17,475 bases of DNA from a virus, in IMG/VR virus record IMGVR_UViG_3300018080_008418; one strand, given 5' to 3'. Positions 6,633-16,608 of this stretch are shown here, in pieces. The first letter of the stretch is position 1; each line of letters begins with the position of its first letter. A program made the translations under genes and the position numbers. The notes below the pieces were generated by a model. It was not told the origin of the DNA. It searched no databases and saw nothing but the letters and a program-made list of their open reading frames with translations.

Positions 6633-8256
6633 TGAAGCCAGTCTAGATTTCTGGATCAAGCATGGCTACAACGTCATGTTCAAGGGCCGACATGGTGTGG
6701 GCAAGACATCCATCGTCAAGGAAGCCTTCGACCGTGCGAAGTTGAAGTGGCGGTACTTCAGTGCTGCTACGATGGACCCGTGGGTGGATTTCATCGGCGT
6801 GCCGAAAGAGCAACAGAATGGTCATGGTTCCTATCTCGAATTGGTGCGCCCGATTGAGTTTCAACAGGACACGGTTGAAGCTATTTTCTTGGACGAATTC
6901 AATCGTGCCCACAAGAAGGTCCGCAATGCGGTCATGGAGCTAATTCAATTTCGCTCGATCAATGGAAAGAAATTCAACAATCTGAGGATGATCTGGGCGG
7001 CGATCAACCCGGATGAGGAAGAAGAGTACGATGTCGAGGTGCTGGACCCGGCCCAACGAGATCGCTTCCCGATCCAAGTGGAGCTTCCATACAGGCCGCA
7101 TCTGCCATACTTCATCGAGGTCTATGGCGAGGAAACCGCCCGAGGGGCCGTAAGTTGGTGGCAGGATCTCCCCGACGATCAGAAGGATTTGGTCTCGCCA
7201 CGCCGTTTGGATTACGCCCTGGACGTGCTCTCGAAGGGTGGCAACGTGCGAGACGTGGTTCCGGCCTCGGCCAATATTTCCAATTTGCTCACAACGATTA
7301 AAACCGGTCCCGTTGCGGATCGGTTGCAACGTTTCTGTGACCAGAGCGATGAAGAGGGCGCACGGAAATTCTTGGCTTCGGAGAATCAATACTCAGCCGC
7401 CATTGGCTACATAGTCTCCAAGCGAACGTACCTCGAATTCTTCGTGCCGCTGTTGGGCGACGAGAAGATCAGCCTGCTAATTGCCACAGAGAAATCCGTC
7501 TTTGATTATGCGGTCCAAGCCGCACGATTGGACCGTCGAATTCGTCAAATCATTGCGGACATCATCAGGGCGGATGCCAACAAGAAGTTGGTGAGGAAGC
7601 TGAAGAAAGAGTTTGCTGGCGACCCCAATGCACCGGCGTTGTTTGGCGCTGGCTACTTGTTGCCGACTGGCGAGTTGATTGGCGATGATACGCCTGAGAA
7701 TTCGTATTTCAAGAGTCAGATCACCTCGACAACGATGGTGGATAATTGGCACAGGCGATCCAACAACATCAGCCAGACACATGATCGCAGGAAGCTTTTG
7801 GAAGAGATTAAGGATCGCATGCCCTGTCGCCTTACAACGGATGAGGCACTGAAGATGCTTCGTGTCTTTTCCAACATTGCTGCTCGTTGTCAGCAAAAGA
7901 CGATGAAAGGTTGGGGCGGCTCCTCATTTAAGTGGGTCGGCATGGTCAATCATTGTGTTGAGCAGATCCACAAGAACGACAATGCAACGTGGCCAGAAAT
8001 GGTTGCGGCGCACAAGATCGACCAGATGGGCATTTTCGCTAAATTGGCCGAGGGCGGATTTGGCAACAAGATCTACACGCCCAACAGGAAACTGAAAGTG
8101 CCCGCAGGACAAAAGCAGCCCAATCCGCTCAAGGGGAAGAAATTCTCCAAGACCGGCAATGCCCCCGCTGTTGGGAAAACGTGCCCCAACTGTCAGGCCA
8201 TCGTGGGCTGTAGAACGAAGTTTTGTAAGTGTGGACATAAATTTTACGGACCATGA
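6625..8256 (+). CDS. MoxR-like AAA+ ATPase (AAA_5/dynein-related type) with a C-terminal zinc ribbon.
   Basis: The Walker A motif is 'GRHGVGKTS'. The Walker B and MoxR signature is 'IFLDEFNRAHKKVRNAVMELIQ'. The C-terminus reads 'GKTCPNCQAIVGCRTKFCKCGHKF', a CxxC...CxC arrangement. ATG 6625 overlaps the upstream stop and has a GAGGG RBS. Confidence 0.75.
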   Translation: MISEASLDFWIKHGYNVMFKGRHGVGKTSIVKEAFDRAKLKWRYFSAATMDPWVDFIGVPKEQQNGHGSYLELVRPIEFQQDTVEAIFLDEFNRAHKKVRNAVMELIQFRSINGKKFNNLRMIWAAINPDEEEEYDVEVLDPAQRDRFPIQVELPYRPHLPYFIEVYGEETARGAVSWWQDLPDDQKDLVSPRRLDYALDVLSKGGNVRDVVPASANISNLLTTIKTGPVADRLQRFCDQSDEEGARKFLASENQYSAAIGYIVSKRTYLEFFVPLLGDEKISLLIATEKSVFDYAVQAARLDRRIRQIIADIIRADANKKLVRKLKKEFAGDPNAPALFGAGYLLPTGELIGDDTPENSYFKSQITSTTMVDNWHRRSNNISQTHDRRKLLEEIKDRMPCRLTTDEALKMLRVFSNIAARCQQKTMKGWGGSSFKWVGMVNHCVEQIHKNDNATWPEMVAAHKIDQMGIFAKLAEGGFGNKIYTPNRKLKVPAGQKQPNPLKGKKFSKTGNAPAVGKTCPNCQAIVGCRTKFCKCGHKFYGP

Positions 8257-8617: not shown

Positions 8618-9879
8618 CGAACCTTCTTTCCCAAGAAGATTTTCTGAGCATCTGCATGGAGTTGGAAGAACACCATGCAGTTTTCTATCAACTCTGGACG
8701 ATGGGCAAGCCAGTCTTCACTTCGTCCGTTGAGACGGCGGCGGTGTGTTTTGACCACCAGGGGCAATGGGTGGAGTTTGTTTTCAATCCCGATTATTGGA
8801 AGGGCCTGGATCACTACCAGCGCAAGTTTGTCATCTGCCACGAGTGTTTGCATGTCATCTTGAATCACGGCTTGCGGATCAACAGTATTGGTCAGTTCAA
8901 CCATGACGCCGTGAACGCTTGTTTGGACGTGGTTGTCAACGAGTCGTTGGTGCGTGGTTTCGGATTCGACCGCAAACGCTTGGGGCGTCTCACCAAGAAC
9001 GGCTGTTGGGTGGACACCGTTTATCCCAATCGCAAAGACATCCCCGCTGATGCTGCTTTCGAGTATTACTTGAATCAGCTTCCCAAGGTGAAACTTCCCC
9101 TCCATATCGCTGGCCTACTTGGCGGCATCGACGATCACACCGGATTGGCCGGTTCGGTGTGGGAGGATGCGATTGATGAATTGGACAAACATCTCACGCC
9201 GCAGGAAAAGGAAACGCTCAAAGACTTCATCCGGCGAAATTATCAGACAGATGATGAGGGCGAGAAAGAAAGGGTGCGTCGTGGGGAAGGTTGCGGTGGA
9301 TGGTCTTTCATCAACACCGGTCCTGTCAAGAAGAAGAAGAAATGGGAGTCGGTCATAAAACGGTGGTCGAAGAAGTACGACCGAGCCGAGCTTAGGGATG
9401 TTGAGCAATGGGCAAGATTGAATCGTCGCCTCACCTCCCTGTCTTCCGATCTTATGCTTCCCAGTGAAATGGAGACGGAGCATGATATGGACGGCAAGAT
9501 CCAGGTGTGGTTTTTCCAAGACACCTCTGGCTCTTGCTGGCACCTGAAAGACCGATTCTTCAAGGCCGCACGGTCGCTGGACCCGAAACGGTTTGATGTG
9601 CGCATGTTCTGTTTCGATACCAAGGTCAAAGAAATAGACATAACCGAGGGGAAGATTTATGGAGGGGGTGGAACCCGCTTTGATATTTTGGAAACAGAAA
9701 TTCAAGCAAAACGAGCGACGAAGGGTAATTATCCCGAGGCGGTCTTCGTCATTACAGATGGCTACGGAACGCCCGTCGCCCCGGAAAAACCCGAACGATG
9801 GTATTGGTTCCTCAGTCATAGCCACCGCCGTTGCATTCCCCAAGAGTCAAATGTGTACATGCTCAATGATTTTGAATGA
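8614..9879 (+). CDS. HExxH metallopeptidase-like N-domain plus von Willebrand A (MIDAS) C-domain protein; typical partner of MoxR ATPases.
   Basis: 'VICHECLHVILNH' contains the HExxH motif. 'VWFFQDTSGSC' contains the DxSxS MIDAS motif. The first in-frame ATG is at 8614; the track's 8515 start is a GTG lying within the small zinc-ribbon ORF. Confidence 0.65.
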   Translation: MTNLLSQEDFLSICMELEEHHAVFYQLWTMGKPVFTSSVETAAVCFDHQGQWVEFVFNPDYWKGLDHYQRKFVICHECLHVILNHGLRINSIGQFNHDAVNACLDVVVNESLVRGFGFDRKRLGRLTKNGCWVDTVYPNRKDIPADAAFEYYLNQLPKVKLPLHIAGLLGGIDDHTGLAGSVWEDAIDELDKHLTPQEKETLKDFIRRNYQTDDEGEKERVRRGEGCGGWSFINTGPVKKKKKWESVIKRWSKKYDRAELRDVEQWARLNRRLTSLSSDLMLPSEMETEHDMDGKIQVWFFQDTSGSCWHLKDRFFKAARSLDPKRFDVRMFCFDTKVKEIDITEGKIYGGGGTRFDILETEIQAKRATKGNYPEAVFVITDGYGTPVAPEKPERWYWFLSHSHRRCIPQESNVYMLNDFE

Positions 9880-10284: not shown

Positions 10285-10358
10285 AGCGGGGTGGAGCAGT
10301 CCGGTAGCTCGGGAGGCTCATAACCTCCAGGTCGCAGGTTCGAATCCTGCCCCCGCCA
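10285..10358 (+). tRNA. tRNA-Met (CAT), initiator-like.
   Basis: Cloverleaf read directly: acceptor AGCGGGG pairs with CCCCGCC with an A1xC72 mismatch; U8 G9; D-arm GAGC-AGTCCGGTA-GCTC with A11:U24; anticodon arm GGAGG-CTCATAA-CCTCC; T-arm GCAGG-TTCGAAT-CCTGC; discriminator A. Confidence 0.8.
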
Positions 10359-10575
10359 CTAACTATCGCCCCACGGCGAGTCCCCAATGGGGAGCGAGTA
10401 ATCGTCAGCCGTGAATTACCGTGAGGATGGGAGAGATGTTGACAAGCCGAACAGATAGACGTAGCTGGAAATGCAGCCACCATATTATTTGGTGCCACGC
10501 TACCAGTGCGTCCTGATCGACTTGCGGCATGCAGCCGGTGAAGGACACCAAACCTGAGCCGGAAGAGATGATTAG

Positions 10576-10611
10576 AAGCCCTCGGCTCAGGTGAGCCGAG
10601 GGCTTTTTTTT
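10576..10611 (+). terminator. Rho-independent terminator.
   Basis: GAAGCCCTCGGCTCA-ggtg-AGCCGAGGGCTT is followed by T8. Confidence 0.85.
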
Positions 10612-10676
10612 GTGAAAGGAGCAGTAGGTGAACGACACCGAATGTAAAATCTGAACTTGAGGGAAAAATCGTCGCC

Positions 10677-10862
10677 GTGTATCCTGACCAAGGCGTGGTC
10701 ATGGTGAAGGACGATAAGAAGCTCGCCGATTGGCGACTTGACATCCTTGAGTACGAAGACCTAGAAGCCCTTGGCTTGGAGCCTGACTTTTGGTGGGAAG
10801 GGCAAAGAGTCAAAGTAAATTTCAAAAATGGAGAACCATCACATGTACAACTCGGAGCATGA
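10677..10862 (+). CDS. Small hypothetical protein; start uncertain (GTG 10677, or ATG 10701).
   Basis: The + ORF ends in an ATGA overlap with the next gene. No strong RBS for either candidate start. Confidence 0.35.
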   Translation: MYPDQGVVMVKDDKKLADWRLDILEYEDLEALGLEPDFWWEGQRVKVNFKNGEPSHVQLGA

Positions 10863-11182
10863 CTGACAACGTTACATTCCCCGACTGGCTGCCGCCCTAT
10901 TTGGAGCGGAGCGAGATCTTGGGGAAGCTTGCCAACTGGTTAAAGGAAGGCAAGTCGGACGAAGACATCGCCAGGATGTGGAATTCAACAGCAGAGAAAG
11001 TTCATGATCTGCGAACCCACTGGAGCATGATACGAGACGGCGAGTGCCCGCATTGCGGAGACAAGAGATACGATTGGGACAAGAAAGAATGCCCTAATCG
11101 ACGATGCATAACAAATTGGTATATTCCGCCGCATTGGAGAGAAGGCGGTAAGAAGAAAGGGAAGAAAGGGAAGAAAAAATGA
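10859..11182 (+). CDS. Hypothetical Cys-containing protein of 107 aa with a Lys-rich tail.
   Basis: ATG 10859 is in an ATGA junction. The motif 'CPHCGDKRYDWDKKECPNRRC' suggests Zn binding. Confidence 0.5.
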   Translation: MTDNVTFPDWLPPYLERSEILGKLANWLKEGKSDEDIARMWNSTAEKVHDLRTHWSMIRDGECPHCGDKRYDWDKKECPNRRCITNWYIPPHWREGGKKKGKKGKKK

Positions 11183-11226
11183 TGATGCTCAACAGGTTGA
11201 AACGCAGGGTTACGAATGGCTACACG

Positions 11227-11299
11227 CCCTCGTAACTCAGTTGGTAGAGTTGGGAGCTTTTAACTCTCGGGTCGTAGGTTCGAGTCCTACCGGGGGCAC
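11227..11299 (+). tRNA. tRNA-Lys (TTT).
   Basis: Acceptor GCCCTCG pairs with CGGGGGC; D-arm ACTC-AGTTGGTA-GAGT; anticodon arm GGGAG-CTTTTAA-CTCTC; T-arm GTAGG-TTCGAGT-CCTAC; discriminator A. Confidence 0.8.
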
Positions 11300-11355
11300 T
11301 GAGACTTTCCGACAAAATGTCCGGAGGTTACTCATATATACCTTGGAGGTGTAAT

Positions 11356-11802
11356 ATGAGTAACCCAAAGGCTAAAGGTGAAAAAGGACAAAAGGTAGTA
11401 ATAGGAGAATTGGCAAAGCATGACATTGAGGTGTTGATTCCGCTGAGCGATAACCTGCCATACGATTTGGTAATTGATTGGCAAGGCAGGCTGTTGAAGT
11501 GCCAAGTGAAGTCAAGCGACTATCGGCCTTCTAAAGCAAGTGGAATGGTGGAGTTCAGTCTGAAAACAAACAACTGGTACAAGAAAACCAGCAAGACGTA
11601 TTCAGCGGATGAGATAGATGTGATGCTTTTGTGTGACTTGCGTGATTGGAGTGTGTATGTGCTAGGTCCAAAGGATTTCGATGGACGGTCATCATTCGCC
11701 ATGCGTGACGAAGCAGCCAAGAACGGCCAAAAGAAAGGCGTCAATCTTCGTGAAGACTACTTGCTGTCAGAGGCCACCTTGACGAGAAAGCTGAGCCTAT
11801 AG
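11356..11802 (+). CDS. Putative PD-(D/E)xK-fold nuclease (Hjc/restriction-endonuclease-like core) of 148 aa.
   Basis: A GGAGG RBS lies 6 nt before ATG 11356. 'GEKGQKVVIGELAKHDIEVLIPLSDNLPYDLVIDWQGRLLKCQVKSS' matches the E...D...(E/Q)xK architecture of Hjc-like nucleases. The gene lies between tRNA-Lys and the interrupted tRNA. Confidence 0.35.
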   Translation: MSNPKAKGEKGQKVVIGELAKHDIEVLIPLSDNLPYDLVIDWQGRLLKCQVKSSDYRPSKASGMVEFSLKTNNWYKKTSKTYSADEIDVMLLCDLRDWSVYVLGPKDFDGRSSFAMRDEAAKNGQKKGVNLREDYLLSEATLTRKLSL

Positions 11803-11886
11803 CTCAATTGGTAGAGCATCGGACTTACAGGCCAGACCGCCTACAAGTTAATCCGAAGGTTTCCGGTTCGATCCCGGATGGGCTCA
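11793..11886 (+). tRNA. tRNA-Asn (GTT)-like, 94 nt, with a 21-nt insertion between nt 33 and 34. It would read Val-TAC instead if the insertion were placed at 37/38.
   Basis: A canonical body: acceptor GAGCCTA pairs with TGGGCTC; U8 A9; D-arm GCTC-AATTGGTA-GAGC; anticodon stem TCGGA pairs with TCCGA; variable loop AGGTT; T-arm TCCGG-TTCGATC-CCGGA. The anticodon loop is 28 nt, CT[TACAGGCCAGACCGCCTACAA]GTTAA. The insert can form its own AGGC/GCCT hairpin. Confidence 0.6.
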
Positions 11887-11888
11887 CT

Positions 11889-12092
11889 ATGGGAAGAAAA
11901 CAATCACCAAGTACAAAAAGGCTGCGAAAGCGGAGGATAAGTTTGGCAAAAAGGGCCAAGGAAGAGGGTGTGACCATAGAGCACCTTGAAGAATTAGACT
12001 ACCACTACCCAGACAGGGAGACAATGCAGAGTCCCTATTGTTTGTGTGAAGTGTGTATGGCCAACTTCAACAGGCGACAGAACCCTTTATAG
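11889..12092 (+). CDS. Small basic hypothetical protein of 67 aa, doubtful.
   Basis: The ATG lies 3 nt after the tRNA and has no RBS. Its TAG stop is formed by U8-A9-G10 of the downstream tRNA-His. Confidence 0.2.
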   Translation: MGRKQSPSTKRLRKRRISLAKRAKEEGVTIEHLEELDYHYPDRETMQSPYCLCEVCMANFNRRQNPL

Positions 12093-12153
12093 CTCAATGG
12101 AAGAGCGGCGGTTTGTGGAGCCGCTAGTGCAGGTTCGACTCCTGCTGAAGGGA
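12083..12153 (+). tRNA. tRNA-His (GTG), non-canonical: no encoded G-1, and A73.
   Basis: Acceptor CCCTTTA pairs with TGAAGGG; D-arm GCTC-AATGGAA-GAGC; anticodon arm GCGGT-TTGTGGA-GCCGC; T-arm GCAGG-TTCGACT-CCTGC; discriminator A. Nucleotide -1 is A. Confidence 0.65.
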
Positions 12154-12158
12154 CTAAG

Positions 12159-12572
12159 ATGAAAGAAGTGAAAGGACCGCTTTATCAAGCGAAGGGAGTG
12201 TTGAGGTATTCGGAGGGCTTCAGGTTGGTCGTTGAGGTCGATCAGGAGTTGGCGAATTACTACCGGTCGATGATACCGAAGTGGAAGGTGGTCAACCGGC
12301 AGATGTACCCAGCACACGTGACCGTCGTAAGGGGGCAAAAGGAAACGCCGCCTAATACAGAGCCATGGGAGAGATACCAAGGCGAGTTGGTTGAATACAC
12401 GTACAGCCCAATCGTGCATGAAGGCACGGTGTACTACTGGTTGAATGTGTTTTCAACAAGGTTAGAAGAGGTGAGGCGTGAACTGGGTCTTCCAGTTCAT
12501 AGCGAGTACACCTTGCCGCCCGGTGGGTTTACTAGGTGCTTTCACATGACGTTGGGGAACAAGAAAGAATGA
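12159..12572 (+). CDS. 2H phosphoesterase superfamily protein (LigT / cyclic-phosphodiesterase / Acb1-like) of 137 aa.
   Basis: Two H-x-T-x motifs flanked by hydrophobic residues, 'PAHVTVVRG' and 'CFHMTLGN', about 77 aa apart. This is the defining signature of the 2H family. The gene sits inside the tRNA cluster. Confidence 0.5.
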   Translation: MKEVKGPLYQAKGVLRYSEGFRLVVEVDQELANYYRSMIPKWKVVNRQMYPAHVTVVRGQKETPPNTEPWERYQGELVEYTYSPIVHEGTVYYWLNVFSTRLEEVRRELGLPVHSEYTLPPGGFTRCFHMTLGNKKE

Positions 12573-12997
12573 GAAAGAAAATAGAAGAAGGAAGCTTCTG
12601 GGGGAATGTGAGCACGGGCGCAGTCCGAAAAGTTACTGGCTTCTTTGTCGAGTCAGTGCAGTACAGGGAGTACAATCAAGGTTGCAAGACGGCCATCCAA
12701 GGCCAACTTCTTCCGGCCTCGTTGAGGGCTTGGGGGAAGGAGATGACCGAGGAGAATGCACGAAGGGCATTTCCCAACTTGGATGAAATTGATGCGGCCA
12801 CGGACGTAGAAAACAGCAAGCGTAATCGAAGGATTGTGCAGGCATTGAGCGACGAGATGGACATGGCCATCTTCCACGTCGAGCAGGATGTTCGTGACTT
12901 GGAAGAAGAAGTGGTTCGGGGTAAAATGAGTCACAAGGCCATCGCTCGTAAACTGGACGGTATAGCCATGAAGCTAGGAGCTTTGCAAAATGGTTGA
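12569..12997 (+). CDS. Hypothetical protein of 142 aa.
   Basis: ATGA overlap at 12569-12572 with the upstream gene. Confidence 0.5.
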   Translation: MRKKIEEGSFWGNVSTGAVRKVTGFFVESVQYREYNQGCKTAIQGQLLPASLRAWGKEMTEENARRAFPNLDEIDAATDVENSKRNRRIVQALSDEMDMAIFHVEQDVRDLEEEVVRGKMSHKAIARKLDGIAMKLGALQNG

Positions 12998-13262
12998 TTA
13001 TGCGACAGCGAAGTTGACACCGGTCGATCCAGCGGAGTTGGCGGGCAAGACGATCAAAGAAGTTGATGCATCGTCTTCCAACGTCTTGCTGATCGAGTTT
13101 ACGGATGGGACGAGTGTTGCGATTGAATCGCATCACAACTTCCATGGGATGGATCACTACGAGATTATGGAGATGACCGATGCTGTGCCCGATAACGGAG
13201 GCAGCCAAAGCCGTTTGCAAAAAATGGAATCTGGGAGACGAAAGCGTGCGAGAAGTGGCTGA
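12990..13262 (+). CDS. Hypothetical protein of 90 aa; its 3' end overlaps the next ORF by about 80 nt.
   Basis: ATG 12990 overlaps the upstream stop. The frame stays open to 13262. Confidence 0.4.
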   Translation: MVDYATAKLTPVDPAELAGKTIKEVDASSSNVLLIEFTDGTSVAIESHHNFHGMDHYEIMEMTDAVPDNGGSQSRLQKMESGRRKRARSG

Positions 13263-13365
13263 CTTGATCGCCGAGACGATTCACAAAGTTGAAGCACGGA
13301 TTGAGAATGACAGACATATAAGGATGCTGGCTGACGCCACTGGTTACGGTCCAGATTTTTCATGA
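13180..13365 (+). CDS. Hypothetical protein of 61 aa.
   Basis: A GGAG RBS lies 7 nt before ATG 13180. The stop overlaps ATG 13362 in an ATGA junction. Confidence 0.4.
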   Translation: MLCPITEAAKAVCKKWNLGDESVREVADLIAETIHKVEARIENDRHIRMLADATGYGPDFS

Positions 13366-13553
13366 ATGACAAATACGAAAAGCATGTAAAAGAGATCATC
13401 GAGGAGTTGGTTGAAGAGTATGGCGAGCAGTATCGCCTATTGCTGGAAGATGCTTGGTTTTGGGTGAAGACACGAGAACCAGTGTGGGATCTTCCCAGCC
13501 CTCTCAATCACGAAGAGTTTTTGAGGGACGTGGTGATACGAGCCACAATGTAA
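13362..13553 (+). CDS. Hypothetical acidic protein of 63 aa.
   Basis: ATGA coupling with the upstream ORF. Confidence 0.45.
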   Translation: MNDKYEKHVKEIIEELVEEYGEQYRLLLEDAWFWVKTREPVWDLPSPLNHEEFLRDVVIRATM

Positions 13554-13554
13554 A

Positions 13555-13755
13555 ATGACTTTCCAATACGAAGATGGATGTAGGGTTGAGACACAGCCGA
13601 ACCGGCCATACGGAGTGCGGGCGAGGCTCTTCAATCCTGATGGGAAGTTGGTAAAGCAGATGACGTTCGAGCCGAACGAAGAAGAACATTGGGCGGCTGA
13701 AGTCATTTATGTAAGACACTGGTTGATGAAAAATGGAAGTGTGTATTACGGGTGA
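13555..13755 (+). CDS. Hypothetical protein of 66 aa.
   Basis: The ATG lies 1 nt after the upstream stop. Confidence 0.45.
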   Translation: MTFQYEDGCRVETQPNRPYGVRARLFNPDGKLVKQMTFEPNEEEHWAAEVIYVRHWLMKNGSVYYG

Positions 13756-14005
13756 ACAGTTAAGGGTAGCATTGAAGCAGATTGAACAAGCGGAAGAGCA
13801 GGGGTTCGAGCACTGTTTGTCGATCTTTAAGATCTTTCAGGTAGGTGAATGCGTAAGCGATTGTCAAGCAAGACACGTGGGATTGATATTGCGAGCAGAT
13901 AAGGCCGACCCGAACAAGGATTGGGGTCGGATTTGCAATCAGTTCCTCGGCGACTATAGATATGTTGACGGAGAATTGATCGACATAGCTGAACAAGGTA
14001 GTTGA
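13733..14005 (+). CDS. Hypothetical protein of 90 aa.
   Basis: A + ORF that overlaps the upstream gene by 23 nt. Its stop falls inside the 5' end of tRNA-Ile. Confidence 0.4.
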   Translation: MEVCITGEQLRVALKQIEQAEEQGFEHCLSIFKIFQVGECVSDCQARHVGLILRADKADPNKDWGRICNQFLGDYRYVDGELIDIAEQGS

Positions 14006-14068
14006 AGGCTGGTGGCCTGACTGATGCTGATAACATCGGGATGTCGAGTTCGATTCTCGGAACTACCA
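13997..14068 (+). tRNA. tRNA-Ile (GAT)-like with a non-canonical D-arm.
   Basis: Acceptor GGTAGTT pairs with AACTACC; anticodon arm TGATG-CTGATAA-CATCG; T-arm TCGAG-TTCGATT-CTCGG; discriminator A. Position 8 is G and the D-loop is short. Confidence 0.5.
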
Positions 14069-14078
14069 CTGGGAGATA

Positions 14079-14360
14079 ATGATGGATTACGTAACAGGGA
14101 ATCAGAGAAAAGAGTTGATGCGTCGGCTTAAAGATCGTGGTGTAGCCTATCAGGTCTACACGAATCTGACCCAGCTTCAACTTCTTGCCAGCCAGGGAAA
14201 AGATCCTCAGCAGATCGCTTCCCAGTTAGGGGCAACTAACGAGGACGTGTTACGGGCTTTTGAAATTTTGGGGATTCGCCACAAAGCGAAGGTTGCTGAC
14301 ATGCGGAAGGTGAGGGAGGCCCTTACGAAAGTGAAAGAGGAGCCGATGAAGGGAGTATAG
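14079..14360 (+). CDS. Hypothetical protein of 93 aa, possibly a helix-turn-helix DNA-binding protein.
   Basis: A GGGAGA RBS lies upstream. 'DPQQIASQLGATNEDVLRAFEILGI' is HTH-like. Its TAG stop is formed by U8-A9-G10 of the downstream tRNA. Confidence 0.45.
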   Translation: MMDYVTGNQRKELMRRLKDRGVAYQVYTNLTQLQLLASQGKDPQQIASQLGATNEDVLRAFEILGIRHKAKVADMRKVREALTKVKEEPMKGV

Positions 14361-14424
14361 CTCAGTCGGTTAGAGCGCTAAGCTGATAACTTAGAGGTCG
14401 GAGGTTCGACTCCTCCTACTCCCA
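14351..14424 (+). tRNA. tRNA-Ile (GAT), canonical.
   Basis: Acceptor GGGAGTA pairs with TACTCCC; D-arm GCTC-AGTCGGTTA-GAGC; anticodon arm CTAAG-CTGATAA-CTTAG; T-arm GGAGG-TTCGACT-CCTCC; discriminator A. Confidence 0.8.
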
Positions 14425-14438
14425 CTAGGAGAAATGAT

Positions 14439-14690
14439 ATGTGGCTATGTGGGATCAACGACGTTCCGACGAACTGCTCCAGGTGTGGAGCCGGGATGTA
14501 CGCCCACTATGCCATTGTTGATAACCCCTTCGGGGGCGAGGCGATTTGCGAGGCATGCGAGAAACGTGAAGCCCAGGAAATCAAAATCAAAACGCAAGCG
14601 GCAAAAGGTGCATGTCAAGAAGCGCCTGCGCCAGCGTTACGGCATCGACGCCACGAAATATATCCTGGCCGAAATGACCGAGTTGGTTAG
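14439..14690 (+). CDS. Zinc-ribbon protein. Its C-terminal third overlaps a better-looking reading frame.
   Basis: A strong AGGAGA RBS lies 6 nt before ATG 14439. The product carries 'CSRCG...CEAC'. After about residue 45 the +1 frame looks more protein-like than this frame. Confidence 0.45.
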   Translation: MWLCGINDVPTNCSRCGAGMYAHYAIVDNPFGGEAICEACEKREAQEIKIKTQAAKGACQEAPAPALRHRRHEIYPGRNDRVG

Positions 14691-14943
14691 GAGTCAGCCG
14701 AATGACCACGTGCTCCTATTGAGCGATGGATACATGTCGGGGCCAAACCACTCGTGTCGCACGCATATATACAACATAATGTACATGGGCCAATGGATAC
14801 GGGTGGTCTACGATGTGGACCAGGAGAAGCTGTTGACGGCTCTCCCGCCAAAGCCACCGAAGGATTTAGAGTTTTACGACGCCAACGAGGCAAAAGCAGA
14901 GGTCGAGAAAGACCTTGACGTGAAAGTGTTGTGGAGGGAATAA
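14566..14943 (+). CDS. Hypothetical protein with a basic N-terminus. It is either an independent gene (GTG 14566, or ATG 14672) or the C-terminal part of a frameshifted fusion with 14439.
   Basis: In the +1 frame relative to 14439, 'YGIDATKYILAEMTELVRSQPNDHVLLLSDGY...' is globular-looking, while the overlapping part of frame 0 is Ala/Pro/Arg-rich. Confidence 0.4.
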   Translation: MKPRKSKSKRKRQKVHVKKRLRQRYGIDATKYILAEMTELVRSQPNDHVLLLSDGYMSGPNHSCRTHIYNIMYMGQWIRVVYDVDQEKLLTALPPKPPKDLEFYDANEAKAEVEKDLDVKVLWRE

Positions 14944-15023
14944 TTTTTGAAAACACAGGAGGATGCGATGCTGAATTGTAGTGGTTTCTTGTAAGGCAAT
15001 AACGCCTTACAGGAGACAGTACC

Positions 15024-15221
15024 ATGGCCAAACTGTACAAGCACATGGGTCTGCGTCACCCAAAAACGACGCAAGAACGACGTGAGAGCCAAGAGGGTTG
15101 GGGTCGTCCCCGAAGAAACGTAGCCAACTTGGTTGAGGCGTATGACGACGTGCCCAGGAGCATTCAACGGAGTTGGAAAGAACACAGGAAAACAAGATAC
15201 CATCGTATAAAGGATGCGTGA
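15024..15221 (+). CDS. Small basic hypothetical protein of 65 aa.
   Basis: AGGAGA lies 7 nt before the ATG, preceded by the hairpin GTAAGGC-aataac-GCCTTAC. Confidence 0.55.
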   Translation: MAKLYKHMGLRHPKTTQERRESQEGWGRPRRNVANLVEAYDDVPRSIQRSWKEHRKTRYHRIKDA

Positions 15222-15416
15222 ATGGATTGGGAACAGTTTGGGAAGGATCTCAAGAAGGCCCGTGAAGAGATCACGCTGCAAGACCTAACTCGGTCGCAGT
15301 GGGAAAGGGTTTGCAACCGGATCGCCAACTGCATTCACCAACAAATCCCTTCCAGTGATTTTGACTGGGGGAAGTTCATGAATGCCTGCGGGCTGAAGGA
15401 CAGGAAGGTGGCCTGA
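15222..15416 (+). CDS. Hypothetical protein of 64 aa.
   Basis: The ATG lies immediately after the upstream TGA; AAGGA is the RBS. Confidence 0.5.
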   Translation: MDWEQFGKDLKKAREEITLQDLTRSQWERVCNRIANCIHQQIPSSDFDWGKFMNACGLKDRKVA

Positions 15417-15646
15417 TGGAGCCAGCTAAGCGGCTGATAAGACGGAGCGTATGGGCAATGTTTTACAGCCTGGGAAACAACTTGCCGATGTACGTTTTGC
15501 TAGGCTTTGGCGCATTGATCGAGTGGTTTGGAGCAGATGTGGGAAGTTTTAAGCTTTGCACATTTTTGTTAGGGGCCTTTTTCCTACTTTCATGGTTCCT
15601 TTGGCTGAAGAGTCCTGAAGTAAACAGGAGAATGAACGATGAATGA
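15416..15646 (+). CDS. Small membrane protein of 76 aa with two predicted transmembrane helices.
   Basis: ATGA-type overlap. The hydrophobic stretches are 'MYVLLGFGALIEWF' and 'LCTFLLGAFFLLSWFLWL'. Confidence 0.5.
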   Translation: MEPAKRLIRRSVWAMFYSLGNNLPMYVLLGFGALIEWFGADVGSFKLCTFLLGAFFLLSWFLWLKSPEVNRRMNDE

Positions 15647-15983
15647 ACCTGAACTGGTTGTGCTTGGCGATACTCAGGATCGTTATACTCCTGATCCGGG
15701 CACCCACGGCATTGGGGTTGAGATTTGTTGCGGCGTGTGTGGCACCCCCATGGAGGTCTTCCGCAATGCGTTGGGGCCTCGGGGATTTGCCCAGGCGATG
15801 GGTGGTGGCAAGAGCCCGCATGATGCTTACACTTGTCCCCATCGTGGTGAGGATTGGCATGAACAAGTCGTTGCCCTGAGACAAGAGGCCAAGAAGACGC
15901 CGAGCATGCGTTTGGCCAAGATTATGTTGGAAGAAGCGGGAGATATTTTAGAGACGAAGAAGGTGACCAAGAAGATCACCTGA
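15639..15983 (+). CDS. Hypothetical Cys/His-containing protein of 114 aa.
   Basis: It overlaps the upstream gene in an ATGAATGA junction. The motif 'CCGVCG...CPH' suggests metal binding. Confidence 0.5.
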   Translation: MNEPELVVLGDTQDRYTPDPGTHGIGVEICCGVCGTPMEVFRNALGPRGFAQAMGGGKSPHDAYTCPHRGEDWHEQVVALRQEAKKTPSMRLAKIMLEEAGDILETKKVTKKIT

Positions 15984-15988
15984 TTTAT

Positions 15989-16062
15989 GGTGGGCGTAGC
16001 TCAGTTGGTAGAGCGCTGGATTGTGGTTCCAGTCGTCGCCGGTTCAAGTCCGGTCGCCCACC
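15989..16062 (+). tRNA. tRNA-His (GTG), canonical bacterial type with encoded G-1 and C73.
   Basis: G-1 followed by acceptor GTGGGCG pairing with CGCCCAC; D-arm GCTC-AGTTGGTA-GAGC; anticodon arm CTGGA-TTGTGGT-TCCAG; T-arm GCCGG-TTCAAGT-CCGGT; discriminator C. Confidence 0.8.
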
Positions 16063-16065
16063 CCT

Positions 16066-16140
16066 GTGGCCGTCCCATGCTGGTTTTGGGGCCCTGGCCG
16101 TGAACCAGGGTTACGGCGGGTTCAATTCCCCCCGGTCACC
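16066..16140 (+). pseudogene. Degenerate tRNA-like gene, possibly a pseudo-tRNA-His.
   Basis: Acceptor GTGGCCG pairs with CGGTCAC and the discriminator is C. The anticodon arm CCCTGG-CCGTGAA-CCAGGG has a 6-bp stem and C33. The T-stem has a mismatch and nucleotide 9 is missing. Confidence 0.3.
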
Positions 16141-16145
16141 TTGAT

Positions 16146-16219
16146 GCCCCTATGGCTGAATGGAACTAGGCACCTCGCTTCTAACGAGGATCATGTGGGT
16201 TCGAGTCCTACTGGGGGTA
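16146..16219 (+). tRNA. tRNA-Arg (TCT).
   Basis: Acceptor GCCCCTA pairs with TGGGGGT through G1·U72 and U6·G67 wobbles; a 3-bp D-stem; anticodon arm CCTCG-CTTCTAA-CGAGG; T-arm GTGGG-TTCGAGT-CCTAC; discriminator A. Confidence 0.65.
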
Positions 16220-16276
16220 CTCGGAGCAGACTGTAGAGATGGACTTCCGGCCACCTGTGGCCGGAAGTCCGAACAT

Positions 16277-16348
16277 AGGTCCGTGGTGTAATTGGTAGCA
16301 CGTTGCTCTCCAAAAGCAAAAGTCCGGGTTCAAGTCCTGGCGGGCCTG
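16277..16348 (+). tRNA. tRNA-Trp (CCA).
   Basis: Acceptor AGGTCCG pairs with CGGGCCT; D-arm GTGT-AATTGGTA-GCAC; anticodon arm TTGCT-CTCCAAA-AGCAA; T-arm CCGGG-TTCAAGT-CCTGG; discriminator G. Confidence 0.7.
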
Positions 16349-16414
16349 CTGGGACCAATCTTGCAAGAGAGTTTGGAGCGGTCGCCGCCGACCGTGCCCT
16401 AAACGGCGGCACAC

Positions 16415-16508
16415 AGGTGCCTAGCTCAATTGGTAGAGCACTGGTCTTTTGCCCAAACAGGCAACAAGCCAAAACCAGCGGTTGGGGGTTCGATTCCCTC
16501 GGCACCTG
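16415..16508 (+). tRNA. tRNA-Trp (CCA)-like, 94 nt, with a 21-nt insertion between nt 33 and 34.
   Basis: Acceptor AGGTGCC pairs with GGCACCT; D-arm GCTC-AATTGGTA-GAGC, Trp-like; anticodon stem CTGGT pairs with ACCAG; T-arm GGGGG-TTCGATT-CCCTC; discriminator G. The loop is CT[TTTGCCCAAACAGGCAACAAG]CCAAA. Removing the insert leaves CTCCAAA, identical to the Trp loop at 16308-16314. The insert forms a TTGCC/GGCAA hairpin. Confidence 0.6.
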
Positions 16509-16513
16509 CTTGA

Positions 16514-16608
16514 GCGCCCGTAGCTCAATGGATAGAGCAACGGACTAGAGGTCAGGCTGCCTCACAAATCTAATCCGTAGGTTGCAAGTTCGAGTCTTGC
16601 CGGGCGTG
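16514..16608 (+). tRNA. tRNA-Arg (TCT)-like, 95 nt, with a 22-nt insertion between nt 33 and 34.
   Basis: Acceptor GCGCCCG pairs with CGGGCGT; D-arm GCTC-AATGGATA-GAGC, matching the layout of Arg-UCU tRNAs; anticodon stem ACGGA pairs with TCCGT; T-arm GCAAG-TTCGAGT-CTTGC; discriminator G. The loop is CT[AGAGGTCAGGCTGCCTCACAAA]TCTAA. Removing the insert leaves CTTCTAA, identical to the loop of the Arg tRNA at 16146. Confidence 0.6.

What the first reader, a model, noticed from the sequence alone, without database searches (positions are those of the whole stretch)
10285..16608. The tRNA repertoire is dominated by isoacceptors that are classic targets of anticodon nucleases
The set is initiator Met, Lys-UUU, Asn-GUU (interrupted), His-GUG twice, Ile-GAU twice, Arg-UCU twice (one interrupted) and Trp-CCA twice (one interrupted). 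Lys-UUU is the target of PrrC-, RloC- and PARIS-type nucleases. Arg is cleaved by colicin D-type nucleases. His and Asn, with Q34-type anticodons, are cleaved by colicin E5-type nucleases. Initiator Met and Trp are targets of VapC-type toxins. The set looks more like a counter-defence kit than a codon-usage supplement. Duplicated isoacceptors with divergent bodies, one canonical and one odd, would fit the idea of cleavage-resistant spares.
Basis: inference. Interest (0 to 1): 0.6.

Follow-up and report, generated by a model that had tools for sequence, protein, structure and literature searches.

The report
Phage tRNA island with interrupted tRNAs
This piece of a very large bacterial-virus genome carries twelve tRNA-like genes, three of them split by a short hairpin insert just before the anticodon, and the set is probably one part of a much larger tRNA complement, not a kit chosen to match known tRNA-cutting defence enzymes.

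Summary
The tRNA list is essentially right. There are 12 tRNA-like genes at 10285-16608. Ten pass Rfam and two are ARAGORN-only.

The claim that the set is dominated by nuclease targets does not hold as evidence. It is significant only against a target list drawn up after seeing the set. With a fuller list of known tRNase targets, P is 0.2-0.75.

An 89.9-kb viral contig with nearly the same tetranucleotide signature (r=0.95) carries about 14 more tRNA-like genes (Ser, Leu, Tyr, Phe). The window therefore probably shows one island of a broad complement.

Phage codon usage does not favour the encoded tRNAs. The host is unknown.

Some context fits a tRNA-damage theme. A 2H phosphoesterase lies among the tRNAs, and a cyclic-phosphate domain protein lies in the sister island. 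That idea is already published.

The tRNA-Lys gene is part of a recurrent cassette with an I-Ssp6803I-like homing endonuclease.

The most unusual feature is three tRNA genes (Asn, Trp, Arg) with 21-22-nt hairpin inserts starting exactly at position 34. They have no bulge-helix-bulge and are far too short for group I introns. Similar inserts occur in other viral contigs. I found no description of them in four literature searches. How they are removed, if at all, is unknown.

The parts
10285..10359 (+). Initiator-like tRNA-Met (CAT)
   Evidence: ARAGORN. Rfam 62.6 bits. A1.C72 mismatch and A11:T24 pair read from the sequence.
11226..11299 (+). tRNA-Lys (TTT), first half of a recurrent tRNA-Lys + homing-endonuclease cassette
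   Evidence: 64.4 bits. In three homologous contexts a tRNA-Lys(TTT) gene lies 40-78 nt upstream of the endonuclease gene.
11356..11802 (+). Free-standing PD-(D/E)XK homing endonuclease, I-Ssp6803I-like. Its stop codon lies inside the next tRNA gene.
   Evidence: Pfam PF11645 1.5e-22. PDB 2ost 2.9e-7. PADLOC 'HEase' 1.9e-8.
11793..11887 (+). Interrupted tRNA, most likely Asn (GTT), 95 nt
   Evidence: Rfam 62.7 bits. Clean Asn-GTT cloverleaf after removal of the insert. ARAGORN alone reads Val-TAC.
11826..11846 (+). 21-nt hairpin insert TACAGGCCAGACCGCCTACAA between U33 and G34
   Evidence: No bulge-helix-bulge can form.
12083..12154 (+). tRNA-His (GTG) without an encoded G-1 and with A73
   Evidence: 65.5 bits. 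Acceptor end read from the sequence.
12159..12572 (+). 2H phosphoesterase, 137 aa, with two H-x-T motifs
13997..14069 (+). Degenerate Ile (GAT)-like tRNA
   Evidence: ARAGORN only. Not matched by Rfam at E<=1. Folds as a cloverleaf.
14351..14425 (+). tRNA-Ile (GAT), canonical
   Evidence: 77.5 bits.
15990..16064 (+). tRNA-His (GTG), canonical bacterial type with G at -1 (15989) and C73
   Evidence: 65.7 bits. Sequence.
16066..16140 (+). Degenerate His (GTG)-like tRNA with C33, one base after the canonical His gene
   Evidence: ARAGORN only. Not matched by Rfam. Fold.
16146..16220 (+). tRNA-Arg (TCT), uninterrupted, with a divergent body
   Evidence: 52.1 bits. 70% identical to the spliced interrupted copy.
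16277..16349 (+). tRNA-Trp (CCA), uninterrupted, with a divergent body
   Evidence: 62.7 bits. 67% identical to the spliced interrupted copy.
16415..16509 (+). Interrupted tRNA-Trp (CCA), 95 nt
   Evidence: Rfam 58.3 bits. Clean Trp-CCA cloverleaf after removal of the insert. A1:T72 pair and G73.
16448..16468 (+). 21-nt hairpin insert TTTGCCCAAACAGGCAACAAG between U33 and C34
16514..16608 (+). Interrupted tRNA-Arg (TCT), 95 nt
   Evidence: Rfam 58.9 bits. Clean Arg-TCT cloverleaf after removal of the insert.
16547..16568 (+). 22-nt hairpin insert AGAGGTCAGGCTGCCTCACAAA between U33 and U34
   Evidence: 16 of 22 bases match the insert in tRNA-Phe of IMGVR_UViG_3300018080_000148, including one compensatory stem change.

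Best explanation
The region is one tRNA island of an uncultured, very large (jumbo or huge class) phage of a bacterium.

**A broad complement, not a selected set.** The island is probably one part of a broad tRNA complement. With the probable sister contig the count reaches about 26 tRNA-like genes for 11 specificities in 52 kb sampled. Such a complement makes phage translation less dependent on the host tRNA pool, whether that pool is mismatched, shut down or cut by host nucleases. The particular specificities seen here reflect how the genome groups its tRNA genes. The sister island holds the class II tRNAs plus Phe. This island holds Met, Lys, Asn, His, Ile, Arg and Trp. Selection for known nuclease targets is not needed to explain the list.

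**Selfish DNA shapes the island.** tRNA-Lys(UUU) travels with an I-Ssp6803I-like homing endonuclease gene.

**RNA end healing.** The 2H phosphoesterase between the tRNA genes is inferred to process 2',3'-cyclic phosphate RNA ends.

**The interrupted genes.** The three interrupted genes are most likely precursors. A 21-22-nt hairpin intron lying between U33 and the wobble base would be cut out and the halves rejoined by proteins. This would be neither the archaeal bulge-helix-bulge route nor self-splicing.

**Shown and inferred.**
- Shown: the genes, the insert positions, the absence of a BHB, the protein families and the cassette.
- Inferred: same-genome status of the sister contig, the RNA substrate of the 2H enzyme, and any splicing.
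For: **Gene set and inserts.**

**Bacterial host.**
- Two sigma-70 family ORFs score above the NCBIfam cut-off.
- The initiator tRNA has a 1:72 mismatch.
- The sister contig has a bacterial-type long-arm tRNA-Tyr and a bacterial SRP RNA hit.

**Large-phage lineage.**
- The DUF2201 and AAA proteins are 39-53% identical to those of the 595-kb phage LR756511 and of an 859-kb contig.
- Relatives of a sister-contig protein lie on 340-533-kb viral contigs.

**Sister contig.**
- Tetranucleotide r=0.948 to the window. The next best of 97 viral loci is 0.61 and the median is 0.34.
- GC is 0.514 against 0.523 for the window.
- It carries a near-identical type of insert.
- It holds 14 more tRNA-like genes with no overlap in specificity.

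**Relatives with other tRNA subsets.** Other loci carrying the 2H homologue have Ser/Leu/Tyr/Phe islands together with EF-Tu and an aminoacyl-tRNA synthetase.

**No codon-demand signal.**

**2H fold and motifs.**

**cREC protein in the sister island.**

**Endonuclease cassette.** Found in 4 of 4 contexts.

**Inserts.**
- No BHB.
- No group I or other Rfam hit.
- The tRNA bodies are intact.
- Similar inserts occur in other viral contigs.
- Apart from archaeal 37/38 introns, the first 120 genome-contig hits to the same pattern include only two candidate inserts: one Parcubacteria tRNA and one uncultured archaeon.
Against: - Same-genome status of the sister contig rests on composition and insert similarity only. 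There is no overlap or shared gene, and codon-usage correlation is only 0.65.
- No RNA ligase, kinase or RNA endonuclease is present in the window itself.
- There is no expression or splicing evidence.
- The splice-site geometry differs among the three predicted precursor folds.
- The host is unknown, so neither the supplementation test nor the nuclease test could be completed.
- All copies of the window sequence may come from the same or closely related samples, so there is no sequence variation to test selection.
Confidence: 0.55

Rival explanations
1. First reader's model. The set was selected because these isoacceptors are the ones host anticodon nucleases cut (PrrC/RloC/PARIS for Lys, colicin D type for Arg, colicin E5 type for His and Asn, VapC for fMet and Trp). 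The duplicated odd copies are cleavage-resistant spares.
For:
- There is no codon-demand signal in the phage ORFs.
- 2H and cREC cyclic-phosphate enzymes lie in the islands.
- The inserts sit at 33/34, which is the bond PrrC cuts in tRNA-Lys (established knowledge). An interrupted loop could not be recognised by such enzymes.
- The concept is shown experimentally for T5 tRNA-Lys and for tRNA-Tyr (PMC11464382, PMC11555353) and proposed generally (PMC10264068, PMC7824862).
Against: - The target list is post hoc. With a fuller list P=0.2-0.75.
- The probable sister island adds Ser, Leu, Tyr and Phe in full isoacceptor sets.
- The Lys, Arg, Trp and Met anticodon loops are canonical.
- tRNA-Lys is linked to a homing endonuclease in 4 of 4 contexts.
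- The host and its defence systems are unknown.
Confidence: 0.2
2. Codon supplementation. The tRNAs supply codons that the phage uses more than its host does.
For: - This is the classical explanation for phage tRNAs.
- Arg-UCU, Ile, Lys-UUU and Asn tRNAs read A/U-rich codons, which are rare in GC-rich hosts.
Against: - In 4329 window codons AGA has RSCU 0.65 and AAA 0.64.
- The duplicated His and Trp tRNAs serve only 2.7% and 2.0% of codons.
- The most used codons (GAA/GAG, AAG, TTG, GTG) are not specially served.
- Only 17 kb of the phage was available and no host, so this is half a test.
Confidence: 0.1
3. The interrupted and degenerate copies are not working tRNAs. They could be genes inactivated by insertion of a small mobile hairpin element, gene variants kept because the insert destroys a homing-endonuclease target in the anticodon-loop DNA, or RNA decoys that bind but cannot be used.
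For: - Homing endonuclease genes lie in these islands: the PD-(D/E)XK ORF overlaps the start of interrupted tRNA-Asn, and an HNH ORF ends 3 nt before interrupted tRNA-Thr in L031.
- I-Ssp6803I cuts a tRNA gene at the anticodon-loop DNA (established knowledge).
- Related inserts occur in different tRNAs at slightly different positions: Arg at 33/34 here and Phe at 32/33 in the sister contig. This suggests mobility.
- No splicing enzyme is known in bacteria for such inserts.
- The two ARAGORN-only copies fail Rfam.
Against: - The interrupted genes have intact cloverleaves and the more canonical bodies. They are 80-84% identical to E. coli Trp and ArgU as recalled from memory, against 67-68% for the uninterrupted paralogues.
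- Precise removal of the insert restores a perfect 7-nt loop in all three.
- The hairpin stem is kept by a compensatory A:T to G:C change between the Arg and Phe inserts.
- The PD-(D/E)XK endonuclease is consistently linked to tRNA-Lys, not to interrupted genes.
- Asn has no uninterrupted copy in the window.
Confidence: 0.25
4. The virus infects an archaeon and the inserts are ordinary archaeal tRNA introns removed by the host splicing endonuclease and RtcB.
For: - Archaeal tailed viruses carry intron-bearing tRNAs and RNA ligases (bioRxiv 10.1101/2021.05.26.445827).
- In the genome scan nearly all true interrupted tRNAs were archaeal.
Against: - No BHB at 33/34 or 37/38: 2-6 of 10 pairs, below the best score in shuffled sequences.
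- Two sigma-70 family proteins.
- The initiator tRNA has a 1:72 mismatch.
- The sister contig has a bacterial-type tRNA-Tyr and bacterial SRP RNA.
- Loci carrying homologues of the 2H protein encode a T4-type major capsid protein and bacterial EF-Tu.
Confidence: 0.03

Closest known systems
Phage T4 tRNA gene cluster with SegB homing endonuclease, and the Pnkp/Rnl1 repair of PrrC-cut tRNA-Lys
   Same: - A cluster of phage tRNA genes interspersed with small ORFs.
- A free-standing homing endonuclease sits inside the tRNA region.
- An RNA end-healing theme is present (2H here, cREC in the sister island, RNA ligases near 2H homologues).
- The inserts lie at the same bond, 33/34, that PrrC cuts.
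   Different: - No Pnkp or Rnl gene is in the window.
- The endonuclease is of the PD-(D/E)XK I-Ssp6803I type, not GIY-YIG.
- T4 tRNA genes are uninterrupted.
- The host nuclease is unknown.
Nuclease-resistant phage tRNAs (T5 tRNA-Lys against PARIS, tRNA-Tyr against Retron-Eco7 PtuAB, mycobacteriophage C1 tRNAs): PMC11464382, PMC11555353, PMC10264068
   Same: - A phage-encoded Lys-UUU and other isoacceptors that are known nuclease targets.
- Duplicated copies with divergent anticodon stems.
   Different: - Resistance in those cases comes from point changes in the anticodon stem-loop relative to the host tRNA. That cannot be assessed here without a host.
- No known case uses an insert in the loop.
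tRNA complements of huge phages (>200 kb) with translation genes
   Same: - Distant protein relatives lie on 340-859-kb contigs.
- tRNA genes are grouped in islands, with duplicated isoacceptors.
- Related loci carry EF-Tu, an aminoacyl-tRNA synthetase, a CCA-adding enzyme and a ribosomal L7/L12-like protein.
   Different: - The genome here is fragmentary.
- Hairpin inserts 5' of the anticodon have not, as far as I could find, been described for these phages.
Archaeal and eukaryal bulge-helix-bulge tRNA introns
   Same: - Short inserts (about 12-30 nt) in the anticodon loop whose precise removal restores the tRNA.
- The insert forms a hairpin.
   Different: - Position is 33/34, not 37/38.
- No BHB can be drawn.
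- The host is bacterial and has no known splicing endonuclease.
Group I introns in bacterial tRNA anticodon loops (for example Synechocystis tRNA-fMet with intron-encoded I-Ssp6803I)
   Same: - The interruption is in the anticodon loop of a bacterial-type tRNA gene.
- An I-Ssp6803I-family endonuclease is in the same locus.
   Different: - The inserts are 21-22 nt, ten times too short for a ribozyme, and there is no group I hit in Rfam.
- The endonuclease is free-standing and linked to the uninterrupted tRNA-Lys.

Membership tests
tRNA (Rfam RF00005) | Covariance-model score above the gathering threshold (29 bits) | tested here: met
   Ten genes score 52-78 bits. The two ARAGORN-only copies (13997, 16066) do not match even at E<=1, so for those two the feature is not met.
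Bacterial initiator tRNA | Mismatch at 1:72, A11:U24 pair, and three consecutive G:C pairs at the bottom of the anticodon stem | tested here: inconclusive
   The A1.C72 mismatch and A11:T24 pair are present. Only two of the three G:C pairs are present (A29:T41, G30:C40, G31:C39), read.
Bulge-helix-bulge tRNA intron | A 3-nt bulge, 4-bp helix and 3-nt bulge around both splice sites | tested here: not met
   The scripted scan gives 2-4 of 10 pairs at 33/34 and 2-6 of 10 at 37/38, below the best score of shuffled sequences.
Bulge-helix-bulge tRNA intron | Splicing endonuclease (EndA/Sen) available in the host or virus | not testable with these tools
   The host is unknown. No such domain is present in the window ORFs. 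Bacterial host markers argue against it.
Group I intron in a tRNA gene | Ribozyme core of about 200 nt or more | tested here: not met
   The inserts are 21-22 nt. Rfam gives no intron family hit.
2H phosphoesterase superfamily | Two H-x-T/S motifs on a two-lobed fold | tested here: met
Acb1 anti-CBASS phosphodiesterase | Specific sequence or fold relationship to Acb1, and cleavage of cyclic oligonucleotides | tested here: inconclusive
PD-(D/E)XK_5 / I-Ssp6803I homing endonucleases | Sequence membership | tested here: met
   PF11645 at 80.6 bits against a cut-off of 26.1. 2ost at 2.9e-7.
PD-(D/E)XK_5 / I-Ssp6803I homing endonucleases | Encoded inside the intron whose insertion site it cuts | tested here: not met
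   The ORF is free-standing. It lies 57 nt after tRNA-Lys and overlaps the start of the next tRNA. The same position after tRNA-Lys holds in three homologous contexts.
Nuclease-evading phage tRNA | Anticodon stem-loop differs from the host isoacceptor at nuclease recognition or cleavage positions, and the host carries the nuclease | not testable with these tools
   The host was not identified and no host tRNA or defence gene is available. The loops of the uninterrupted copies are canonical, apart from C33 in the degenerate His copy.
Codon-supplementing phage tRNA | Cognate codons over-used in phage genes | tested here: not met
   RSCU and amino-acid shares over 4329 codons show no excess. The comparison with the host could not be made.

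The most novel reading that the evidence does not exclude
The 21-22-nt hairpin inserts between U33 and the wobble base would be a new class of tRNA intron in viruses of bacteria. They would be neither self-splicing nor bulge-helix-bulge, and would be removed by a protein cut-and-rejoin pathway built from phage RNA-repair enzymes (cyclic-phosphate healing plus a ligase). Because the insert occupies the very bond that PrrC-type nucleases cut and disrupts the anticodon-loop DNA that tRNA-gene homing endonucleases recognise, it could keep a host-like tRNA body immune to attack until the phage's own enzymes mature it.
Probability: 0.3. Interest if true: 0.8.

Novelty: new variant of a known kind. 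Interest (0 to 1): 0.5.

Why it matters
The finding as written adds little. Phage tRNAs as insurance against tRNA-cutting defences is a published idea, and this window cannot test it.

The interrupted genes are what would matter. Bacteria are thought to have only self-splicing group I introns in tRNA genes. Intact phage tRNA genes with short non-BHB inserts, recurring in several viral contigs beside RNA end-healing enzymes and homing endonucleases, would point to an undescribed tRNA maturation route in infected bacteria. They would also make testable the question of whether phages hide tRNAs from nucleases as precursors.

The recurrent cassette of tRNA-Lys(UUU) with a PD-(D/E)XK endonuclease also shows that selfish DNA, not only selection on translation, shapes phage tRNA sets.

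Tried and rejected
**Searches for close relatives.**
- Megablast of the region against 50,697 phage records found no match.
- The search for related loci in viral contigs with the 2H protein and with a DUF2201 alignment found nothing.
- The metagenome scan gave four distant loci without tRNAs next to the DUF2201 gene.

**Search for a longer contig of this phage.**
- Only contigs of 1-15.6 kb with the same genotype were returned.
- The cluster tables mention a 115,554-bp contig carrying the identical 2H and endonuclease proteins. It could not be retrieved.

**Candidate second contig.**
- L140, from the same samples, carries a 2H paralogue, a CCA-adding enzyme and an RNA ligase.
- I rejected it as part of the same genome: GC 0.465, tetranucleotide r=0.33.

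**Collaborative-homing idea.**
- I considered that the PD-(D/E)XK endonuclease is paired with the interrupted tRNA-Asn.
- This was weakened when three homologues were all found after an uninterrupted tRNA-Lys with different downstream neighbours.

**Splice-site geometry.** Hand and scripted searches for a BHB, for RNase III-like 2-nt staggered geometry and for a hammerhead core found nothing consistent across the three inserts.

**Extra insert copies.** No further copies of the Arg insert occur elsewhere in the window.

**Intron placement by software.** ARAGORN's own intron placement is unreliable. It calls Lys, Trp and Ser for the three genes with the -i option.

**Literature.** Four full-text searches for short tRNA introns in phages found no description.

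Full report
**Observation**

ARAGORN and Rfam together give 12 tRNA-like genes on the + strand between 10285 and 16608. They are:
- Met-CAT, Lys-TTT, and an interrupted 95-nt gene at 11793;
- His-GTG (12083), Ile-GAT (13997, weak) and Ile-GAT (14351);
- His-GTG (15990) and a His-GTG-like gene (16066, weak);
- Arg-TCT, Trp-CCA, and interrupted Trp and Arg genes.

Ten pass the Rfam threshold at 52-78 bits. The two weak copies are ARAGORN-only and are not matched even at E<=1.

The Met tRNA has an A1.C72 mismatch and an A11:T24 pair, so it is initiator-like (sequence).

In each interrupted gene the insert begins at tRNA position 34. Removing 21, 21 and 22 nt gives clean Asn-GTT, Trp-CCA and Arg-TCT cloverleaves. 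The Asn assignment is probable rather than certain. ARAGORN on its own reads Val-TAC, and the discriminator base is A.

The same sequence (>=99.8% identical), including the inserts, occurs in ENA, Logan and JGI assemblies. These may derive from the same or sister samples.

**What the window is**

All genes run on the + strand and GC is 0.52. No close relative exists among deposited phages.

The upstream half encodes:
- two sigma-70 family proteins, both above the NCBIfam cut-off;
- a JAB/ThiF pair;
- a MoxR-type AAA protein;
- a DUF2201 metallopeptidase-like protein.

The last two are 39-53% identical to proteins of the 595-kb phage LR756511 and of an 859-kb metagenome contig. The sigma factors and the initiator tRNA point to a bacterial host. 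The sister contig supports this with a bacterial-type tRNA-Tyr and an SRP RNA hit.

**Is the set enriched for nuclease targets?**

That list was built after seeing the set. It takes Trp from the M. tuberculosis VapC family but omits that family's other targets.

I then counted, from my own knowledge, the specificities for which a tRNase has been described. This includes the other VapCs, CdiA toxins (among them one specific for Ile-GAU), MazF-mt9, PtuAB and Schlafen-type enzymes. On that count 14-18 of 21 specificities are targets, and P rises to 0.21-0.75.

More importantly, the window is a fragment. A pattern scan for interrupted tRNAs found contig IMGVR_UViG_3300018080_000148 (89.9 kb).
- Its tRNA-Phe carries an insert that matches the window's Arg insert at 16 of 22 bases.
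- Its tetranucleotide signature correlates with the window at r=0.948. The next best of 97 viral loci is 0.61 and the median is 0.34.
- The 34 kb of it that I could read holds Ser x5, Leu x5 (all five anticodons), Tyr, Phe x2 and one 124-nt tRNA-like gene. None overlaps the window's specificities.

Another locus carrying the 2H homologue has 15 Ser/Phe/Leu/Tyr tRNAs beside EF-Tu and an aminoacyl-tRNA synthetase. The simplest reading is a broad complement stored in islands, as is usual in very large phages.

**Codon usage**

I counted 4329 codons in the window's ORFs.
- AGA has RSCU 0.65 and AAA 0.64.
- His makes up 2.7% of codons and Trp 2.0%, although both tRNAs are duplicated.
- The most used codons are not specially served.

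This argues against simple supplementation. Without a host it is only half a test.

**Proteins inside the island**

ORF 12159-12572 is a 2H phosphoesterase.
- Two invariant H-x-T motifs are present in 23 homologues.
- The structure model is confident.
- Fold alone cannot separate an RNA cyclic-phosphodiesterase from an Acb1-like anti-CBASS enzyme.
- Its position between tRNA genes favours RNA ends. So does the position of its homologues in tRNA islands and within 4-10 kb of RNA ligase genes.
- The sister island carries a cREC cyclic-phosphate-processing domain protein. Iyer et al. link that family, together with 2H enzymes, to RNA repair in jumbo phages (PMC7824862).

ORF 11356-11802 is an I-Ssp6803I-like PD-(D/E)XK homing endonuclease.
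- In the window and in three homologous contexts (43-54% identity) it lies 40-78 nt downstream of a tRNA-Lys(UUU) gene.
- tRNA-Lys plus endonuclease is therefore a recurrent cassette. This resembles SegB in the T4 tRNA region, and by itself it can explain why Lys-UUU is present.

**The interrupted genes**

The inserts are TACAGGCCAGACCGCCTACAA, TTTGCCCAAACAGGCAACAAG and AGAGGTCAGGCTGCCTCACAAA. Each is a 4-5-bp hairpin followed by a short A-rich tail.
- They cannot form a bulge-helix-bulge at 33/34 or at 37/38.
- They are ten times too short for a group I ribozyme, and Rfam gives no such hit.
- The predicted precursor folds give no common cleavage geometry.
- The gene bodies are intact.
- After splicing they are closer to standard bacterial tRNAs than the uninterrupted paralogues are: 80-84% against 67-68% identity to E. 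coli Trp and ArgU. The E. coli sequences were recalled from memory.
- Paralogues within the window are only 50-70% identical.

Comparable hairpin inserts on the 5' side of the anticodon occur in other viral contigs:
- Phe at 32/33 in the sister contig;
- Trp at 33/34 in L028;
- Thr at 34/35 in L031.

The Arg and Phe inserts differ by a compensatory A:T to G:C change in the stem.

Nearly all hits were normal tRNAs. The true interruptions were almost all archaeal 37/38 introns (14 tRNA-Tyr genes and one further uncultured archaeon), plus one Parcubacteria tRNA.

Four literature searches found no description of such inserts in phages.

**How it most likely works**

Shown:
- the gene set;
- the exact insert positions;
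- the absence of a BHB or ribozyme;
- the 2H and homing-endonuclease families;
- the cassette.

Inferred:
- The island is part of a broad complement that keeps phage translation going whatever happens to host tRNAs.
- The 2H enzyme heals cyclic-phosphate RNA ends.
- The interrupted genes are precursors matured by protein cutting and rejoining.

The inserts sit at the bond that PrrC cuts in tRNA-Lys. They would also disrupt anticodon-loop DNA of the kind I-Ssp6803I-type enzymes recognise. Both observations are suggestive and neither is tested. The main alternative is that these copies are not working tRNAs (insertion-inactivated genes, endonuclease-immune variants or decoys). This cannot be excluded without RNA data.

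**Verdict**

The enrichment argument is not sound. The counter-defence reading is plausible only in the general, already published sense. The feature worth following up is the class of short non-BHB inserts in phage tRNA genes.

Noticed in passing
window 1538-2053 and 2208-2852: Adjacent JAB-domain and ThiF/E1-like ORFs. They match the JAB and E1-E2 models of ubiquitin-like defence systems in PADLOC, and weakly match the NCBIfam 6A-MBL cap2_3 model. A phage-borne E1/JAB pair could act on host ubiquitin-like defence conjugation.
   Followed up: partly
window 3-713 and 5702-6280: Two sigma-70 family ORFs (TIGR02937, 44.0 and 47.6 bits against a cut-off of 42.9). The phage seems to bring its own sigma factors. 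I used this only as evidence for a bacterial host.
   Followed up: partly
window 6625-8256 and 8656-9879: A MoxR-like AAA ATPase followed by a DUF2201 metallopeptidase-like protein. The pair is conserved (39-53% identity) in a 595-kb phage and in metagenome contigs of up to 859 kb. Its function is unknown.
   Followed up: partly
window 12083-12154 versus 15990-16064: The two good tRNA-His genes carry different identity sets. One has no encoded G-1 and has A73. The other has G at -1 and C73, the usual bacterial type. They are only 58% identical.
   Followed up: partly
window 10360-10676: About 300 nt without a convincing ORF after the initiator tRNA, ending in a strong G+C hairpin followed by a T run (about 10577-10611). 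This may be a small RNA or a long tRNA trailer. Rfam gives only sub-threshold hits.
   Followed up: no
window 2984-3466: An ORF with a signal-peptide-like, lipoprotein-like start followed by a long acidic proline-rich repeat (PAPEDPAPEDP...). No family hit.
   Followed up: no
L265 14432-14515, 15307-15831, 17877-18000, 19848-20285: The probable sister contig carries several further items:
- a hit to bacterial small SRP RNA just above threshold (41.9 bits against 40), overlapping the start of a tRNA-Leu;
- a cREC cyclic-phosphate domain protein;
- a 124-nt tRNA-like gene with a roughly 49-nt insert in the anticodon loop;
- a ribosomal L7/L12 C-terminal domain protein.
   Followed up: partly
L278 2996-3086 and 6035-6123; L031 7658-7746, 8996-9086, 9124-9214: In other phage tRNA islands, tRNAs that are normally class I (Trp, Arg, Asn, Lys) carry long hairpin variable arms and are 89-91 nt long. 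Those in L278 fall below the Rfam threshold; L031 was not scanned. L278 also carries a tmRNA (59.5 bits).
   Followed up: no
L143 1850-1925, 2052-2127, 2668-2744: A locus carrying a 2H homologue has short (76-77 nt) tRNA-Leu copies beside normal 82-87-nt copies with the same anticodons. This is another case of paired canonical and unusual isoacceptors.
   Followed up: no
L160 (Parcubacteria MAG PQAE01000002.1), match at 2817-2888: A bacterial genome tRNA, probably Lys-TTT, with a 21-nt hairpin insert at the 5' edge of the anticodon loop. It is the only bacterial case among the first 120 genome hits.
   Followed up: no
L267 16706-17395 and the 116.7-kb contig holding the P0011 homologue: PF08003 (Methyltransf_9) methyltransferases, which I recall as the CmoB family of tRNA wobble-uridine modifying enzymes, occur near the tRNA islands of the sister contig and of another phage carrying the 2H homologue.
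   Followed up: no
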